Source: a virus (taxonomy: Duplodnaviria; Heunggongvirae; Uroviricota; Caudoviricetes). Taken from it: 64,000 bases of DNA. Where the stretch lies: the IMG/VR virus record IMGVR_UViG_3300046694_000587; one strand, written 5' to 3'. Shown one piece after another: positions 1,294 to 63,275 of the stretch. Under the pieces are notes generated by a model. It had not been told where the DNA came from and searched no databases. It worked only from the letters and a program-made list of their open reading frames with translations. Every line of letters starts with the position of its first letter. The first letter of the stretch is position 1. The translations under genes and the position numbers were made by a program.

Positions 1294-1536
1294 CGCTTTT
1301 CAACCACTGCATTATTGCTCACCGCCTCTGTGGCGGCTTCAAAGCACCAAAAATCAAGCGGCGAAAAGCTGCTACGTAATCCGCCTCTATGGCGGCAGGA
1401 TGGTAAGTTGGACCGGGCGCCCGACGAAATTGGTCATTTCGGGCGGGCGCTGCTGCTTGCTCTTTCAACGTGGACGACCTGGCTAAATAGTTTGACCTAT
1501 ACGGAATGCGGTCAAACTTTTTGAGGTAAATCCACA

Positions 1537-2283
1537 ATGAAATCCTGTTTCAAATCCATTCTTAACAAATCCCTGTACTGGGCCGGTGCGGCAATGGGCG
1601 TCTATGCGCTCATCTTCGAAGCGGTCTGTGCGTTGTCGTTGCGTCCCTTCAGCTTGAGCCGCGCTGGTCGGTGGTTCTTCGTAAAGCTGGGTCGCACGGG
1701 CATTCCGCTTCGCCAGAGCCTGTTGCTCCTGCTGGTCCTGGGCCAGTACTGGCTCATCGAGTTCGGCACGCAGTTCGATACGAACGTAGTGTTGCTGTCT
1801 CCGTTCATCATGTTCCTCTGCGTTCACCGCCGGCGCGTGTTCAGCGTCACGAACAACGGCCTGGGAAACTGGAGCCTGCACATGAACATTGTGAACGCTG
1901 ACGAGCAGAAGCAGCTGAGCTCGAAGCTGGCGGGGGTCTATGCCGAACTCGACGAAGTGGTCGCCCTGGCGATTGAGTCCGGTGCCCGAACGCTGTCGTG
2001 CGAATCTGCATTGCTGGTGCAGGATGCGACCGCGCGACTGATGGCCGCCAAGCTGACGAGGGTTTTCTCTCAGCATGGCGTCACGGTTCGCATCGAGACG
2101 ATGGACAGCAAGCCGCTGAACATCTTCCTGTCGGGAGTGCATCGTCCGTTGCGCTATTTCCAGCGCGGGCTCAAGGTTGGTCGAATCTCGTATTCGACGA
2201 CGGAAAAACTGATGAGCCGTCGCATGGTCATCCATATCCCATCGGAAGCCTGGTTTTCGGCCTATACGAAGGCGCAAGCCTAA
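1537..2283 (+). CDS. hypothetical protein with N-terminal hydrophobic segment
   Basis: 248 aa ORF; RBS GAGGTAAA; CTATAC motif at 1497-1502 upstream. Confidence 0.45.
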   Translation: MKSCFKSILNKSLYWAGAAMGVYALIFEAVCALSLRPFSLSRAGRWFFVKLGRTGIPLRQSLLLLLVLGQYWLIEFGTQFDTNVVLLSPFIMFLCVHRRRVFSVTNNGLGNWSLHMNIVNADEQKQLSSKLAGVYAELDEVVALAIESGARTLSCESALLVQDATARLMAAKLTRVFSQHGVTVRIETMDSKPLNIFLSGVHRPLRYFQRGLKVGRISYSTTEKLMSRRMVIHIPSEAWFSAYTKAQA

Positions 2284-2297
2284 CCTCTGAGGGAATC

Positions 2298-2456
2298 ATG
2301 CAAATCATCTTCTGGTGTGTGCTGGCGAACGGCCGTGAAAATTCGCTGAGCACCGACAACTTGTTCGACGCGCCCCGTCGCGCACGAGCGCTCGGCGCTG
2401 TTGCTTGCTTCTGCAAGAACATGTCGACCGGCAAAACGATGAAACTCTCGATGTAA
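2298..2456 (+). CDS. small hypothetical protein (52 aa)
   Basis: RBS GAGGGAAtcATG directly after the upstream stop; followed by terminator 2471-2499. Confidence 0.3.
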   Translation: MQIIFWCVLANGRENSLSTDNLFDAPRRARALGAVACFCKNMSTGKTMKLSM

Positions 2457-2470
2457 AAGCCTTTTCTCTC

Positions 2471-2499
2471 GACGCCTCCTTGTGAGGCGTTTTCTTTTT
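2471..2499 (+). terminator. rho-independent terminator
   Basis: GACGCCTC-cttgt-GAGGCGT stem followed by TTTTCTTTTT. Confidence 0.6.
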
Positions 2500-2634
2500 G
2501 TCGCGCCCACGCGCCGCCGCTGCCGCCAGCTCGATTAGCTACGCGCCCCGTCCAACTGACACGCTCAGTATGAAGACTTTTACGCTATACCAACTTGTAG
2601 CACCAGGTCAATCTCTTCTCTAACGAGGTCAAAA

Positions 2635-60254: not shown

Positions 60255-60426
60255 CGTCTGAATTCAAACATTTGCGGTATACGCTACGATTTACACGGTG
60301 TATCACGCTATACATAGTGCAATCGAGGACATACCGAAAATTGCACAATCTGTGAGGAAACACAGGGAGGAAGAGCCCCAGTACCAAAAATCTGCTACCG
60401 TTTAAAGGGATATTTGCACATGGCGC

Positions 60427-60454
60427 TTGACAAATTGGGGATTCGTTGTAGAAT
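60427..60454 (+). promoter_or_regulatory. sigma70-like promoter TTGACA-16-TAGAAT
   Basis: TTGACA at 60427-60432, TAGAAT at 60449-60454. Confidence 0.45.
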
Positions 60455-60509
60455 GAATCCAACAGTAATATATACCCGTTACCACTGGGTACCTACATGA
60501 GAGGTTAGC

Positions 60510-61439
60510 ATGAGCCAGTTCGACCGTTATACCGTGACCGAAGAAGTCGAGGCTTACCGGGCATTCCTGGACATCAGCAAGCGCGGTTTCTTGCGCGACT
60601 ACGGCTTCGTCGAAGACGCAGACGAACAACGCAAGGGCCGTTTGCCGAAGTATCCGGAAGCGCCTGTCAAGGCACTCCAGGAGATGGTGAACCAGAAGTC
60701 GGCACGTTGCGAAGCCCCCGATACCACGGTGGGTGAACGCTACAAGTTGGCACGGGACTACATGGGCCTGAACGACGCGCAAGTGTCGCGAGAGCTCGGT
60801 GTAAGCCGGGAGTTGGTGCGCAAATGGGGATTGGACGTTCATCGTCCGTCCAACATGGAAGCACTGGCAACCCTGCTGAATGTTCCGCAGCCATGGCTGG
60901 AAGAAGGTGGGGAGCAAAACCTGCCGGCAAACAGCCACCTGGGCGTCCGTGTGGGAGAAGAGGCCCTCAAATGGCGCGAAGAGCTGTACGGTTTGACCGA
61001 AGTTGTTATTTCGGAACTCCCCGACGGTGCGGACCAGGCTTACGCTCAAGCCGCAATCGAGTGGGCCGTGTTCCAGAACTTCGAGCTCGCGCGAGCAGCA
61101 CGTCGAGCCGGTGGACGTTGGCAAATCGTTATTCAGAACCAGCAAAGCACGCTGCTCTTTTCGCCGTGGGTTCCGATTCCGGAGCATGGTCTGTCCAAGC
61201 GTTTCTGGAGTGATGAAGTTGAAGCCATCATCCAGGAAGAGCTGGCAGACAAGACTGTCTACGGCGCGTGGGAAGCCATGCGTCAGCGCTGTGAAGCAAT
61301 GGGTTTGGGCCCGGACCAATATCCGAAGCGTATTTCCCTGCATAAACGTGCAGAGAAGGACCGCATTCGTGCGGAACGTTTCGGCGTTGACCTGAACGAA
61401 ATGGTCGCTGCTTCGGTTGAGAAGTATTCGAAACAGTGA
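60510..61439 (+). CDS. HTH-containing putative regulator
   Basis: HTH LNDAQVSRELGVSRELVRKWG. Confidence 0.45.
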   Translation: MSQFDRYTVTEEVEAYRAFLDISKRGFLRDYGFVEDADEQRKGRLPKYPEAPVKALQEMVNQKSARCEAPDTTVGERYKLARDYMGLNDAQVSRELGVSRELVRKWGLDVHRPSNMEALATLLNVPQPWLEEGGEQNLPANSHLGVRVGEEALKWREELYGLTEVVISELPDGADQAYAQAAIEWAVFQNFELARAARRAGGRWQIVIQNQQSTLLFSPWVPIPEHGLSKRFWSDEVEAIIQEELADKTVYGAWEAMRQRCEAMGLGPDQYPKRISLHKRAEKDRIRAERFGVDLNEMVAASVEKYSKQ

Positions 61440-61521
61440 AGCGTTTAACCAGTCTGCGAAAGCACCGCTGTAGTTCGGAAGCAGATACCGCTATACAGGT
61501 AATATTCGTTATGGATTTATC

Positions 61522-63216
61522 ATGACAGGTAACTGCATTCTCAGAAGGCGCCCGGTATCTCACGACCGGGCCCTTATTCTGCAATCTTCGCGGGCTGGGC
61601 TGACCGAACTGGAAGCCTTGGTGCTTGCTTCGCGCGGCGCCGGGCCCGATACGCACACGCTGCCCGGGTTGTTGGGTATCTACCTGACAGACATCGAGCG
61701 CGGAGCGCTCCGCCTGCAGCAAGCCATCCTCAAGCGTGAACAAATTGTCGTCATCGCAGATTATGACTGCGATGGCGCGACCTCGTGCGCCGTCGCAGTC
61801 TCTGGACTGCACGCACTCGGGGCCGACATCGGCTACGTCGTGCCCGACCGCATGGTTCACGGCTACGGCATCTCCCCGTCCGTCGTTGACCTCGCGCGCG
61901 AGCGCTACCCGCACGCGCGCGTGCTGATGACGGTCGACAACGGCATCCTCGGACACGCAGGCATTACGCACGCTGCCAATCTCGGCATGGACGTCGTAGT
62001 GACCGACCACCACCTTCCCGGCGACAGCATTCCGATGGACGCCGTTGCAGTCATCGACCCTTCACGAGATGACGACATCAGCGGGCTCACCAAACTCGCC
62101 GGCTGCGGCGTTGCGTTGTGGCTCGTCGTCGCAGTAAAGAAGCTGCTCGCACAAGGCGGCGTAGACACTCCGCCACTGAATTTCCTGCTGCCCTATGTTG
62201 CCATCGGCACAGTCGCGGACATGGTGTCGCTCGACGTTACCAACCGCGCGCTCATCACCGTCGGTCTCGACCGCATGCGTGCAGGTGACGCACCGATTGG
62301 CATCGCCGCGCTCATCAAGGAATCCGGCAAGGCCCAGCCTTACCTGACCACCCAGGACATCGGCTTCGCCATTGGCCCGCGCATCAATGCCGCCGGCCGC
62401 CTCGACACAATGGACGCGGGTATCGACCTTCTGCTGGCGACGGACCCGAAGGAAGCGCGGCGCCTGGCCAAGCTGCTCACAGAAACGAACGAAGCACGCA
62501 AGCATCTGCAGAAGGAAGCAACAGACGACGTCTCCGCCATGATGGACTTCGGCTTCACCGAAGACATGCGCGCCATCGTGCGCGGAAGTGCTGACTGGCA
62601 CCCAGGAATTGTCGGCCTCGTCGCATCCCGTCTCAAGGAAGACTTCCATCGTCCGAGCTTCGTGTTCTCATTGGCCGATGGCTATGCAAAGGGTTCGGGC
62701 CGCTCGATTCCCGGATTTCACCTGAAAGACGCTTTGGAAAGCGTAGCTCGACGTTGTCCGGGCGTACTCGCCAAATTTGGCGGCCACGCGATGGCGGCCG
62801 GTGCAACGCTCACCAGCGCCGGAGCCCTTGAACAGTTCGAACGGGCATTCCACGACGTCGCGCGCGAGCTCATCACGGAGGAGATGCTCTCGAGCGTCAT
62901 TCTCAGTGACGGTCCGGCGCCCAATTTGAACCTGGACGCCGCGGCCCGCCTGCTGCGACACCCGTGGGGCCAAGGCTTTGATGCGCCCGCGTTCGACGAC
63001 ACGGTCATCATCGACTCGGTCAAGCCGATGGGCAAAGACGGCATTCACTGGAAGGTTGAAGCGCGAATCGGTGGTCGCCGCAGCAAGACAGAGGTCGTAC
63101 TTTTCAAGCATGCCGAGCCGGTCATCGGGCAGGAAGTCCATATGTACCTGCAACCCAGCCTGAATACCTGGCAAGGTCGCACGGTCGTGCAGTGGAGTGG
63201 GCGAGTGCTGCATTGA
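61522..63216 (+). CDS. recJ: single-stranded-DNA-specific exonuclease RecJ
   Basis: DHH motifs IADYDCDGATS...VTDHH; DHHA1 GGHAMAAG. Confidence 0.85.
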   Translation: MTGNCILRRRPVSHDRALILQSSRAGLTELEALVLASRGAGPDTHTLPGLLGIYLTDIERGALRLQQAILKREQIVVIADYDCDGATSCAVAVSGLHALGADIGYVVPDRMVHGYGISPSVVDLARERYPHARVLMTVDNGILGHAGITHAANLGMDVVVTDHHLPGDSIPMDAVAVIDPSRDDDISGLTKLAGCGVALWLVVAVKKLLAQGGVDTPPLNFLLPYVAIGTVADMVSLDVTNRALITVGLDRMRAGDAPIGIAALIKESGKAQPYLTTQDIGFAIGPRINAAGRLDTMDAGIDLLLATDPKEARRLAKLLTETNEARKHLQKEATDDVSAMMDFGFTEDMRAIVRGSADWHPGIVGLVASRLKEDFHRPSFVFSLADGYAKGSGRSIPGFHLKDALESVARRCPGVLAKFGGHAMAAGATLTSAGALEQFERAFHDVARELITEEMLSSVILSDGPAPNLNLDAAARLLRHPWGQGFDAPAFDDTVIIDSVKPMGKDGIHWKVEARIGGRRSKTEVVLFKHAEPVIGQEVHMYLQPSLNTWQGRTVVQWSGRVLH

Positions 63217-63275
63217 ATGGCGTTTTCCGTTATACGGTGGTAGGCAATACCGCCGTATTCGACGAGGAACCGGAG

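What the first reader, a model, noticed from the sequence alone, without database searches (positions are those of the whole stretch)
1490..63240. Pervasive gCTATAC motif upstream of transcription units in both orientations: candidate element-specific promoter
In almost every intergenic gap, 5-45 nt upstream of the first start codon and in the direction of transcription, there is a core CTATAC (rarely TTATAC), usually as gCTATAC(c/g/t)G. Plus-strand examples sit at ~1497, 2585, 7553, 10521, 17379, 21269, 32424, 33546, 39310, 39864, 42627, 46847, 50892, 52239, 55224, 56927, 60308, 61491 and 63231. Minus-strand examples read GTATAG on the plus strand at ~8953, 12612, 13466, 14840, 17322, 23015, 23592, 27614, 28303, 38017, 42585, 50698 and 53865. 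Divergent gene pairs such as 17280-17455 and 42502-42707 carry one copy in each orientation. There is no consistent -35 partner, and the hexamer lacks the invariant final T of a sigma70 -10. This suggests recognition by an element-encoded sigma or anti-sigma factor or an RNA polymerase, not by the host housekeeping sigma. A few genes instead, or additionally, have good sigma70 promoters (2861-2888, 18770, 60427-60454), which may mark host-transcribed early genes.
Basis: seen in the sequence. Interest (0 to 1): 0.7.

Follow-up and report, generated by a model that had tools for sequence, protein, structure and literature searches.

The report
Strict -10-only promoter of giant plasmid
A six-base signal, CTATAC, sits in front of most gene groups of this huge, undescribed plasmid-like element and its relatives, and almost certainly tells RNA polymerase where to start, using a short and unusually strict code that differs from the host's normal promoters.

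Summary
CTATAC occurs 34 times against 4.3 expected. Thirty-one copies lie in the 13% of the window that is intergenic (P=1e-24). In tandem gaps 20 point at the downstream gene and none point away; convergent gaps hold none.

The hexamer is kept exactly, at the same distance from orthologous genes, in eight relatives down to 43% protein identity, while the upstream flank drifts. A logo of 107 sites shows only (G)CTATAC, with no -35 partner.

A leaderless Thr-rich leader peptide of an attenuator and a leaderless signal-peptide gene both begin 6 nt after the hexamer. That places it at about -10.

The motif matches positions -14 to -8 of RpoS-type (K-CTATACT) and Burkholderiaceae RpoD (GCTATA[A/C]T) -10 regions, but the invariant -7 T is missing.

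Best reading: a strict, -35-independent -10-type core promoter read by bacterial core RNA polymerase with a dedicated sigma factor, probably element-encoded. That factor was not found in the 84 kb I could read.

The element looks like a giant TrfA-type plasmid (relatives on contigs of 0.2-0.7 Mb in Burkholderia, Paraburkholderia, Achromobacter and Novimethylophilus), not an infecting phage.

The parts
1497..1502 (+). CTATAC promoter core, 34 nt upstream of gene 1537-2283
2262..2267 (+). CTATAC inside the 3' end of gene 1537-2283, 30 nt upstream of small ORF 2298-2456; possible internal promoter
2585..2590 (+). CTATAC promoter core, 44 nt upstream of small ORF 2635-2772
7553..7558 (+). CTATAC promoter core, 6 nt upstream of the ATG of signal-peptide gene 7565-7972 with no Shine-Dalgarno; leaderless
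8953..8958 (-). CTATAC promoter core, 5 nt upstream of the ATG of gene 8546-8947 (Phage_L5_gp82-like); leaderless candidate
10521..10526 (+). CTATAC promoter core of the ThrRS-like unit; the leader-peptide ATG follows 6 nt later
10533..10655 (+). Thr attenuator: 23-codon leader ORF MLNLTTTATTTTTSRKWRACFVG*, then terminator hairpin 10626-10648 plus T-run, ahead of ThrRS-like gene 10672-11862
12612..12617 (-). CTATAC promoter core, 33 nt upstream of gene 11916-12578; abuts the T-run of an upstream terminator
13466..13471 (-). CTATAC promoter core, 57 nt upstream of gene 12908-13408
14840..14845 (-). CTATAC promoter core with downstream GTAGGTACA box, 40 nt upstream of gene 14443-14799
17322..17327 (-). 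CTATAC promoter core, 42 nt upstream of gene 16770-17279; divergent partner of 17379
17379..17384 (+). CTATAC promoter core, 70 nt upstream of gene 17455-18192
21269..21274 (+). CTATAC promoter core, 41 nt upstream of gene 21316-21798
23015..23020 (-). CTATAC promoter core, 46 nt upstream of gene 22684-22968
23592..23597 (-). CTATAC promoter core, 37 nt upstream of gene 23099-23554
25540..25545 (+). CTATAC antisense inside gene 25086-25592 with no downstream gene; probably a chance copy
25678..25683 (-). CTATAC inside gene 25613-26053, 85 nt upstream of gene 25086-25592; possible internal promoter
27613..27641 (-). Complete sigma70-type promoter TTGACA-17-TATACT that contains the CTATAC copy at 27614-27619, 64 nt upstream of gene 26389-27549; fixes the register C=-13 with TATACN as the -10 hexamer
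28303..28308 (-). CTATAC promoter core, 112 nt upstream of TraR/DksA-type zinc-finger gene 27912-28190
32424..32429 (+). CTATAC promoter core, 43 nt upstream of MYG1-like gene 32473-33456; directly follows a terminator T-run
33546..33551 (+). CTATAC promoter core, 26 nt upstream of PIN-PhoH gene 33578-34984
38017..38022 (-). CTATAC promoter core, 40 nt upstream of gene 37629-37976; conserved in 2 relatives
39310..39315 (+). CTATAC promoter core, 30 nt upstream of gene 39346-39855; kept at 26-30 nt in 4 relatives
39864..39869 (+). CTATAC promoter core, 44 nt upstream of gene 39914-40306; kept in 7 relatives
42585..42590 (-). CTATAC, 116 nt upstream of HNH-like gene 41845-42468; not found at this place in 7 relatives, so the weakest assignment
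42627..42650 (+). CTATAC plus N6 plus GTAGGCACATAC box, 75 nt upstream of AAA_5 gene 42708-44207; kept at 73-78 nt in all 8 relatives
46847..46852 (+). CTATAC promoter core, 16 nt upstream of GtrA-like gene 46869-47360
50680..50703 (-). CTATAC plus N6 plus GTAGGCACACAT box, 70 nt upstream of GHKL/rIIA-like gene 48207-50627; kept at 60-72 nt in all 8 relatives
50892..50912 (+). CTATAC plus N6 plus GGACATATC, 72 nt upstream of ATP-dependent DNA ligase gene 50970-52184; kept at 62-72 nt in all 8 relatives
52239..52244 (+). CTATAC promoter core directly after a terminator T-run, 43 nt upstream of S49 peptidase gene 52288-53262
53875..53880 (-). CTATAC with downstream GTAGGTCAC, 53 nt upstream of gene 53387-53821
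55224..55229 (+). CTATAC promoter core, 84 nt upstream of YdjM-like gene 55314-55775; kept at 77-84 nt in 6 relatives
56927..56932 (+). CTATAC promoter core, 143 nt upstream of gene 57076-57942; a sigma70-like TCGACA-17-TATACT lies between at 57006-57034
60308..60313 (+). CTATAC promoter core, 196 nt upstream of HTH regulator gene 60510-61439; kept at 194-204 nt in 7 relatives
60427..60454 (+). sigma70-like promoter TTGACA-16-TAGAAT proximal to HTH regulator gene 60510-61439; tandem with the CTATAC promoter
61491..61496 (+). CTATAC promoter core, 25 nt upstream of the RecJ start at 61522
63231..63236 (+). TTATAC variant followed by GTAGGCAA, upstream of ORF 63275-63505
2861..2888 (+). sigma70-like promoter TTGACA-16-TATACT (TTATACT) upstream of TROVE/vWA-like gene 3145-4524, a unit without CTATAC
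16661..16689 (-). sigma70-like promoter TTGACA-17-TATAGT upstream of SPFH gene 15140-16606, a unit without CTATAC
18772..18782 (+). Extended -10 TGTGCTATAAT upstream of ORF 18812-19024; host-type GCTATAAT for comparison

Best explanation
(G)CTATAC is the core promoter of most transcription units of this element.

**How it works.** It acts as a -10-type element in the register G-14, C-13, T-12, A-11, T-10, A-9, C-8. Transcription starts 6-9 nt after the final C. No -35 element is needed. Unlike ordinary -10 hexamers, the sequence is kept letter-perfect.

**What reads it.** The transcribing enzyme is most likely the host's multi-subunit core RNA polymerase. It would be directed by a sigma70-family factor whose upstream contacts resemble those of RpoS or Burkholderiaceae RpoD, but which does not use the -7 T pocket. 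I infer that this factor is encoded by the element, because the motif is family-specific, invariant across hosts of three bacterial families, and different from host promoter rules.

**Other promoters.** A minority of units carry ordinary sigma70-type promoters and are probably read by host RpoD. These units are a TROVE/vWA-like gene, an SPFH gene, an HTH regulator and the gene 26389-27549.

**Shown:** promoter-like distribution, orientation, positional conservation, about -10 placement, lack of a -35 element and of -7 T, and family specificity.

**Inferred:** the identity of the reading factor, that it is element-encoded, and the use of host core enzyme.
For: - **Enrichment and placement.** 34 copies against 4.3 expected. 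31 of 34 lie in 12.9% intergenic sequence, P=1e-24. Tandem gaps hold 20 sense and 0 antisense copies; convergent gaps hold 0. It is the top intergenic hexamer, z=12.9.
- **Conservation.** The exact hexamer sits at the same distance from orthologous genes in 8 relatives with 43-92% protein identity: the AAA_5 gene at 73-78 nt in 8/8, the GHKL gene at 60-72 nt in 8/8, the ligase at 62-72 nt in 8/8, and the HTH gene at 194-204 nt in 7/8. Operon-internal genes lack it in every relative. In the aligned divergent region, sequence upstream of the hexamer is not conserved, while conservation resumes at the 7th base after it.
- **About -10 position.** A 23-codon Thr-rich leader ORF of an attenuator and a signal-peptide gene both start 6 nt after the hexamer without a Shine-Dalgarno. 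Another gene starts 5 nt after it. Purine is found at the 9th base after the hexamer in 81/107 sites.
- **Register.** The one site with T after the hexamer and a perfect TTGACA at 17 bp is 27641-27613.
- **No -35 overall**.
- **Bacterial-type RNAP.** Hairpin plus T-run terminators and an attenuator are present, and a TraR/DksA-type RNAP-binding protein is encoded at 27912-28190.
- **Family specificity.** Controls are.
- **Similarity to sigma70-family -10 regions.** sigma38 CTAtacT without a -35 (PMC3923258); Pseudomonas RpoS (T/G)CTATACT (PMC2375449); Cupriavidus RpoD housekeeping GCTATA(A/C)T with conserved A-11 and T-7 (PMC9045368).
Against: - No transcript 5' ends were available, so the start site is inferred.
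- No sigma factor or RNA polymerase gene was found in the about 84 kb of this element or in the 22-kb loci of eight relatives. More than 85% of the element could not be read.
- All well-studied group 1-3 sigma factors use T at -7. A sigma70-family factor that ignores it has no precedent that I can cite, which leaves room for a different kind of polymerase or cofactor.
- The close resemblance to RpoS-type and host RpoD -10 regions means a host factor is not excluded.
- The two position clues do not agree on one base. The leaderless starts sit at the 6th-7th base after the hexamer, while the purine peak sits at the 9th.
Confidence: 0.6

Rival explanations
1. These are host-read promoters. Host RpoS or RpoD holoenzyme uses GCTATAC as an extended -10 without a -35, so no element factor is needed. 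If RpoS reads them, most of the element's genes would be tied to stationary phase or stress.
For: - The motif equals positions -14 to -8 of the RpoS consensus (T/G)CTATACT, a promoter class that lacks a distinctive -35.
- It also equals those positions in many Cupriavidus RpoD housekeeping -10 regions (GCTATACT, GCTATAAT).
- A few sites (27614, plus two to three in relatives) do carry both T at -7 and a good -35.
- No element sigma factor was found.
- The element encodes a TraR/DksA-type protein that acts on host RNAP.
Against: - T at -7 occurs in 26/107 sites, which is background. It varies freely among orthologous promoters. Yet it is the most conserved -10 base in host RpoD promoters and is part of the RpoS consensus.
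- Host -10 elements are degenerate. Here one-mismatch variants are not used.
- 100 kb of a Burkholderia plasmid shows no intergenic use of the motif.
- The same exact hexamer is kept in elements from hosts of three bacterial families.
Confidence: 0.25
2. The motif is read by an element-encoded RNA polymerase that is not sigma70-dependent, such as a phage-type single-subunit enzyme or a phiKZ-like split multi-subunit enzyme. Such enzymes use short start-proximal motifs.
For: - The motif is short, strict and -35-less, lies next to the start site, and is family-specific.
- Many genes have phage-family matches.
- The GNAT gene is 67% identical to one in phiKZ-related Ralstonia and Burkholderia jumbo phages.
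- Conservation of the first transcribed bases in some promoters (GTAGGCACA, GGACATAT) recalls phage polymerase promoters.
Against: - Only 7 bp are conserved, not the roughly 17-23 bp of T7-like promoters.
- The phiKZ-related phage FLC8 does not use the motif.
- No polymerase gene was seen in 84 kb.
- The replicon is TrfA-type and is carried stably in isolates.
- Attenuation and hairpin plus U-run terminators fit bacterial RNAP.
- The register agrees with a sigma70 -35 at 17 bp in one site.
Confidence: 0.1
3. The motif is not a promoter. It could be an RNA-level signal (a processing or translational control site in 5' leaders) or a binding site for a global DNA-binding protein.
For: - The strand-specific position upstream of genes would also fit a 5'-UTR signal.
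- Several promoters have conserved sequence just downstream of the hexamer.
Against: - In several units the hexamer directly follows the T-run of the previous unit's terminator, and no other conserved element lies upstream that could start a transcript containing it.
- Distance to the start codon ranges from 5 to 196 nt, so it has no fixed relation to the ribosome-binding site.
- Three ORFs begin 5-6 nt after it with no other possible promoter signal between.
- A non-palindromic 6-7 bp site is atypical for dimeric regulators.
- No Rfam family matches.
Confidence: 0.04

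Closest known systems
RpoS (sigma38)-type promoters of Gamma- and Betaproteobacteria, -10 consensus (T/G)CTATACT
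   Same: - G/T at -14 (78/107 sites).
- C at -13.
- TATAC at -12 to -8.
- No distinctive -35 element.
   Different: - The -7 T of the consensus is absent (background frequency).
- The hexamer is letter-perfect rather than degenerate.
- It drives most units of one mobile element rather than a stress regulon.
- The reading factor is unknown.
Burkholderiaceae housekeeping RpoD promoters (Cupriavidus metallidurans TSS map: TTGACA, about 16 bp, then TATAAT, often preceded by GC as in GCTATAAT or GCTATACT)
   Same: - GC at -14/-13 followed by TATA.
- A few units of the element carry full promoters of this type (2861, 16689, 18772, 27641, 60427).
   Different: - No -35 element.
- C at -8 is invariant.
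- The -7 T, one of the two most conserved host positions, is not kept.
Phage T4 late promoters (TATAAATA at -10, read by host core RNAP with gp55 and gp33 plus the sliding clamp). This comparison rests on my own knowledge.
   Same: - A short, strictly conserved, -35-independent -10-type element.
- It precedes many units of a large mobile genome and is distinct from host promoters.
   Different: - The sequence differs.
- No gp55- or gp33-like gene was seen in what could be read.
- The element is plasmid-like and not a T4-type phage.
- No link to replication has been shown.
Alphaproteobacterial sigma70 -10 element CTATAT (Sinorhizobium meliloti CTTGAC-N17-CTATAT)
   Same: Five of six bases match, with a C before TATA.
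   Different: - It works together with a -35 CTTGAC.
- The last base differs.
- The host phylogeny is different.
Extended -10 (TGn-TATAAT) promoters
   Same: Bases just upstream of the -10 hexamer compensate for the missing -35, and G is found at -14.
   Different: The -15 position is mostly C (51/107) and rarely T (18/107), so the TG dinucleotide is not present. The -7 T is also missing.

Membership tests
Canonical sigma70 (RpoD) promoter | -35 element TTGACA-like, 16-18 bp upstream of the -10 hexamer | tested here: not met
   The mean best match is 2.47/6 at 107 sites against 2.35/6 at shifted control positions. Only 4 sites reach 5/6 or better. The logo is flat upstream.
Canonical sigma70 (RpoD) promoter | A at -11 and T at -7 of the -10 hexamer | tested here: not met
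   A at -11 is invariant in the TATACN register. T at -7 occurs in 26/107 sites against a 20% background.
RpoS-type promoter | C at -13 and G/T at -14 | tested here: met
   C is present in 107/107 sites by construction of the motif. G occurs in 65 and T in 13 of 107 sites at -14.
RpoS-type promoter | -10 hexamer TATACT, including T at -7 | tested here: not met
   TATAC is invariant, but the last position is G 40, T 26, A 23, C 18 of 107.
RpoS-type promoter | Dependence on RpoS in vivo | not testable with these tools
   This needs an rpoS mutant of a carrier strain.
Extended -10 promoter | TG at -15/-14 | tested here: not met
   At -15: C 51, A 23, T 18, G 15 of 107. At -14: G 65 of 107.
T4-type late promoter system | Short strict -10-only motif without a -35 | tested here: met
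   This is a functional analogy only.
T4-type late promoter system | Consensus TATAAATA and gp55/gp33 homologues | tested here: not met
   The sequence is CTATAC. No sigma-like PHROG or Pfam hit was found in the window. The rest of the element could not be read.
T7-like single-subunit RNAP promoter | About 17-23 bp conserved from about -17 to +6 | tested here: not met
   Information content is confined to 7 bp, apart from class-specific downstream boxes.
phiKZ-like jumbo phage transcription | The same motif used in related jumbo phages, and split RNAP genes present | tested here: inconclusive
   The phiKZ-related Burkholderia phage FLC8 has 4 copies in 34 kb, all in coding sequence. No split RNAP subunits were seen in 84 kb, but most of the element was not read.
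TrfA-type plasmid replicon (classification of the element) | TrfA-family initiator next to directly repeated iterons | tested here: met
   L023 15281-16345 matches PF07042 at 24.2 bits against a cut-off of 22. Two 41-nt direct repeats 44 nt apart lie in the 700-bp gap upstream. Replication function was not tested.
Tailed phage (classification of the element) | Capsid, portal, terminase or tail genes | tested here: inconclusive
   None appears among about 100 genes of the window and flanks. No relative was found in INPHARED or IMG/VR. Most of the element was not read.

The most novel reading that the evidence does not exclude
The window belongs to an undescribed family of giant (0.2-0.7 Mb) TrfA-type plasmid or phage-plasmid replicons of Betaproteobacteria that run their own transcription code. 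In this reading, a single letter-perfect heptamer, GCTATAC, is read by an element-encoded sigma factor or polymerase that has dispensed with both the -35 element and the universal -7 T contact. This would insulate most of the element's several hundred genes from the host's promoter logic.
Probability: 0.4. Interest if true: 0.72.

Novelty: new variant of a known kind. Interest (0 to 1): 0.58.

Why it matters
If a dedicated factor reads GCTATAC, it would be a sigma-type specificity that works without the -7 T pocket and without a -35 contact. That is of direct interest for how promoter DNA is melted.

It would also explain how a replicon of hundreds of kilobases, made mostly of unknown genes, keeps control of its own expression in hosts as far apart as Burkholderia, Achromobacter and a methylotroph.

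In practice, the motif gives a ready map of transcription units for an uncharacterised family of very large elements. The question is easy to test because at least four cultured strains carry relatives.

The strict 7-bp promoter could also be useful as an orthogonal expression signal.

Tried and rejected
1. **Known phage or plasmid.** Megablast of 20-kb pieces against INPHARED and PLSDB found nothing. tblastn of the 726-aa protein against phages found nothing. The GHKL/rIIA-like protein has only short N-terminal hits in plasmids.
2. **Source or relatives in IMG/VR.** An exact 40-mer, two single proteins and the alignment A1 all found nothing.
3. **Acidovorax plasmid pACP3.1** is the best TopoIII hit, and it has RecJ and a sigma70-family gene nearby. 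It shares only those two window proteins and does not use the motif. Searching its sigma factor against 5.8 billion proteins gave no hit on contigs of this family.
4. **Sigma factor in held sequence.** An HMM built from 120 sigma factors was searched against all 3308 ORFs of the window, flanks and relatives. The best E-value was 0.04. Pfam and PHROG scans of about 90 window proteins gave no sigma or RNAP hit. Reading the sequences of genes behind sigma70-like promoters showed signal peptides and coiled coils, not sigma-like proteins.
5. **phiKZ-like link through the GNAT gene.** Phage FLC8 lacks the motif and shares no other gene.
6. **Composite pattern CTATAC-N6-GTAGGCACA in IMG/VR.** There were 30 hits. 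The motif-dense ones are Asn-Tyr-Thr repeats inside a coding gene, not promoters.
7. **GGACATA as a second promoter box.** Many of the copies that lie close to start codons look like part of the ribosome-binding region GAGGACA. This is my reading of the sequences. Only GACATAYC as a whole is enriched.
8. **Terminator adjacency as a general rule.** Only 5 of 31 sites show it, against 7 of 102 controls, so it is used as anecdotal evidence only.
9. **Rfam and tRNA scans** of the window were empty.
10. **Literature searches** for the element family or the motif in phages and plasmids found nothing relevant.

Full report
**1. The observation**

CTATAC occurs 34 times on both strands of the 64-kb window (60% G+C). 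Dinucleotide-preserving shuffles give 4.3 +/- 2.2, with a maximum of 12.

- 53865 should be 53875.
- 63231 is the TTATAC variant.

I called 83 genes with a codon-usage model and corrected a few against JGI calls for the same DNA. With these calls:
- 31 of the 34 copies fall in the 12.9% of the window that is intergenic (binomial P=1e-24).
- CTATAC is the most intergenic-enriched hexamer (z=12.9). Terminator T-runs come next.
- In gaps between co-directional genes, 20 copies point at the downstream gene and none point the other way (P=1e-6).
- Seven convergent gaps contain none. Eight divergent gaps contain eleven.
- Thirty-one of 57 upstream gaps of at least 25 nt carry the motif. Most of the others are short gaps inside operons.
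- Single-mismatch variants are not enriched.

**2. Extent of the motif**

I aligned 31 window sites, and then 107 non-identical sites from the window, its flanks and eight relatives. Information content is confined to the hexamer and a few weak neighbours:
- T/C at five to six bases upstream.
- C at two bases upstream.
- G directly before the hexamer (65/107).
- G and A at the second and third base after it.

There is no -35 element. The best TTGACA match at 16-18 bp averages 2.47 of 6, against 2.35 at shifted control positions. The base directly after the hexamer is T in only 26 of 107 sites.

**3. What the DNA is**

The window is not in INPHARED, PLSDB or IMG/VR.

Genes recognised in the window:
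- A type IA topoisomerase, RecJ, a 5'-3' exonuclease and an ATP-dependent ligase.
- PIN-PhoH, a ThrRS-like synthetase and a TROVE/vWA-like protein.
- A histone-deacetylase-like enzyme, a dNMP phosphatase, NinB and a resolvase.
- An M15 peptidase and a TraR/DksA-type zinc finger.
- A GHKL ATPase that resembles phage rIIA only in its N-terminal domain.

Many of these genes match phage protein families, but no virion gene was seen.

About 8 kb to the right of the window lies a TrfA-family initiator that passes Pfam's threshold. It is preceded by a 700-bp gap containing two 41-nt direct repeats 44 nt apart.

Homologues of the GHKL protein with conserved gene order lie on contigs of 225-720 kb. These come from:
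- Burkholderia ubonensis, B. vietnamiensis and Paraburkholderia.
- Achromobacter and Novimethylophilus.
- Many metagenomes.

The most economical reading is a family of giant TrfA-type plasmids or phage-plasmids of Betaproteobacteria, not a lytic phage. This classification is an inference from a small part of the element.

**4. Conservation**

All relatives have the same density of the hexamer, 0.4-0.6 per kb.

For 27 genes between 37 and 63 kb, I located the orthologue in each of eight relatives (43-92% protein identity) and looked upstream. Distance from the hexamer to the start codon:

| Gene | Window | Relatives |
|---|---|---|
| AAA_5 gene | 75 nt | 73-78 nt in 8/8 |
| GHKL gene | 70 nt | 60-72 nt in 8/8 |
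| Ligase | 72 nt | 62-72 nt in 8/8 |
| HTH gene | 196 nt | 194-204 nt in 7/8 |

The YdjM-like, S49 peptidase and two small genes behave similarly. Genes without the motif in the window (operon-internal) lack it in every relative.

In the divergent GHKL/ligase gap of all nine sequences, both hexamers are exact. The bases upstream of each differ freely except for the preceding G. Conservation resumes at the seventh base after the hexamer, as GTAGGCACACAT on one side and GGACAYAT on the other. This is the pattern expected if the hexamer is the promoter and the conserved part is the start of the transcript.

**5. Position relative to the start site**

Three ORFs begin directly after the hexamer with no room for a ribosome-binding site:
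- The signal-peptide gene 7565-7972 (CTATAC cgtgac ATG).
- Gene 8546-8947 on the minus strand (5 nt).
- A 23-codon ORF at 10533 (CTATAC tgacgc ATG), which reads MLNLTTTATTTTTSRKWRACFVG*.

The third ORF is followed by a strong hairpin plus T-run at 10626-10655, and then by the ThrRS-like gene. This is a threonine attenuator. Its leader peptide must be inside the transcript, so transcription has to start within the six bases after the hexamer, or at the A of the ATG.

For leadered genes, a purine preference peaks at the ninth base after the hexamer (81/107, with T only 8/107). The hexamer therefore sits at about -10, not at -35 and not inside the leader.

The one site that also has T after the hexamer and a perfect TTGACA 17 bp upstream is 27641-27613. 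It fixes the sigma70-style register as C=-13 with TATACN as the -10 hexamer.

**6. Comparison with known promoters**

In that register the motif is G(-14)C(-13)TATAC(-8).
- E. coli sigma38 promoters have CTAtacT and no distinctive -35 (PMC3923258).
- The Pseudomonas RpoS consensus is (T/G)CTATACT (PMC2375449).
- In Cupriavidus metallidurans, a member of the Burkholderiaceae, mapped housekeeping RpoD promoters often read GCTATAAT or GCTATACT. A-11 and T-7 are the most conserved bases, and TTGACA lies about 16 bp upstream (PMC9045368).
- S. meliloti sigma70 uses CTTGAC-N17-CTATAT (PMC2873474).

It is the upstream seven-eighths of an RpoS/RpoD-type extended -10. Three things set it apart:
- The -7 T is missing.
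- There is no -35 element.
- The sequence is letter-perfect.

**7. Specificity controls**

- 100 kb of Burkholderia multivorans plasmid pBMUL01 (59-63% G+C) has 18 copies. Seventeen are inside genes, and the single intergenic one points at no gene.
- 42 kb of Acidovorax plasmid pACP3.1 has 7 copies with no promoter pattern.
- 34 kb of Burkholderia jumbo phage FLC8 has 4 copies, all coding.

**8. Who reads it**

Several features point to a bacterial multi-subunit enzyme rather than a T7-like one:
- Hairpin plus T-run terminators and an attenuator.
- A TraR/DksA-type protein.
- Agreement of the register with a sigma70 -35 element.

Only 7 bp are conserved, which also argues against a T7-like promoter.

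No sigma70-family or polymerase gene was found in the window, its flanks or the relatives' loci. A search seeded with a plasmid sigma factor found nothing on contigs of this family. More than 85% of the element is out of reach of the tools, so the reader of the motif is unresolved.

I favour an element-encoded sigma70-family factor, for four reasons:
- The motif is family-specific.
- It is invariant in hosts of three bacterial families.
- It violates the host -7 T rule.
- It coexists with a minority of ordinary sigma70-type promoters (2861, 16689, 18772, 27641, 30745, 57006, 60427). These could drive host-read genes, including the HTH regulator at 60510.

Host RpoS or RpoD reading is the main rival.

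**9. Verdict**

- The promoter interpretation is strongly supported by distribution, conservation and placement.
- The claim of a foreign, element-encoded polymerase or sigma factor is plausible but unproven.
- The phage framing is not supported.

This is a new variant of a known kind of signal: a strict, -35-less -10-type promoter class, found in an undescribed family of giant replicons.

Noticed in passing
window 10521-10671: Threonine attenuator in front of a ThrRS-like gene carried on a mobile element. It has a leaderless 23-codon leader ORF with 8 Thr in 9 codons (MLNLTTTATTTTTSRKWRACFVG*), possible alternative pairings, and then a hairpin plus T-run terminator. No Rfam family matches it.
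   Followed up: partly
L023 14361-16345 (about 3-5 kb right of the window end): A TrfA-family replication initiator (Pfam 24.2 bits, cut-off 22) lies behind a 700-bp gap with two 41-nt direct repeats 44 nt apart. This looks like a plasmid origin with iterons. DHFR and a 1465-aa superfamily-1 helicase follow it.
   Followed up: partly
window-wide; relatives L004-L019: The element belongs to a family with conserved gene order on contigs of 225-720 kb in Burkholderia ubonensis, B. vietnamiensis, Paraburkholderia, Achromobacter, Novimethylophilus and many metagenomes. The family is absent from PLSDB, INPHARED and IMG/VR, and most of its genes have no known function.
   Followed up: partly
window 14821-14845(-), 42627-42650(+), 50680-50703(-), 53857-53880(-); the same promoters in L004-L016: A subclass of promoters has a second conserved box, G(T/C)AGG(C/A)ACA(Y)A, starting 5-6 nt after the hexamer. 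It is kept in all eight relatives for the GHKL and AAA_5 genes. It could be a conserved initial transcribed sequence or an operator that marks a regulatory class.
   Followed up: partly
window 27912-28190 (-): A 92-aa TraR/DksA-type C4 zinc-finger protein (CIDCGDDIPKERLALKKIRCVHC), a family that binds the RNA polymerase secondary channel. It lies divergent from the topoisomerase gene and has its own CTATAC promoter.
   Followed up: partly
window 60308-60510: The HTH regulator gene 60510-61439 has two tandem promoters. A distal CTATAC is kept about 195-204 nt upstream in seven relatives, and a proximal TTGACA-16-TAGAAT lies closer to the gene. This layout recalls dual-promoter control of phage and plasmid master regulators.
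   Followed up: no
window 48-485 (+): A GNAT acetyltransferase is 66-68% identical to one in phiKZ-related Ralstonia and Burkholderia jumbo phages (RSF1, RSL2, FLC8), although nothing else is shared with them. This suggests an exchanged gene.
   Followed up: yes
window 48207-50627 (-): The 806-aa protein that matches phage rIIA does so only over its N-terminal GHKL ATPase domain (residues 4-182). It is the best marker of the element family but may not be a true rIIA.
   Followed up: partly
window, 10 sites such as 12581, 22984, 27582, 50905, 60328: GACATAYC occurs 10 times against 1.6 expected. Five copies lie 7-24 nt downstream of a CTATAC on the same strand. Others lie close to start codons and may belong to the ribosome-binding region GAGGACA, which is my reading of the sequences, not a test.
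   Followed up: partly
L009 20859-21935: An IS605-type OrfB/TnpB gene is inserted in the 572-kb metagenomic relative, at a position where the window has a nucleoside deoxyribosyltransferase-like gene region.
   Followed up: no
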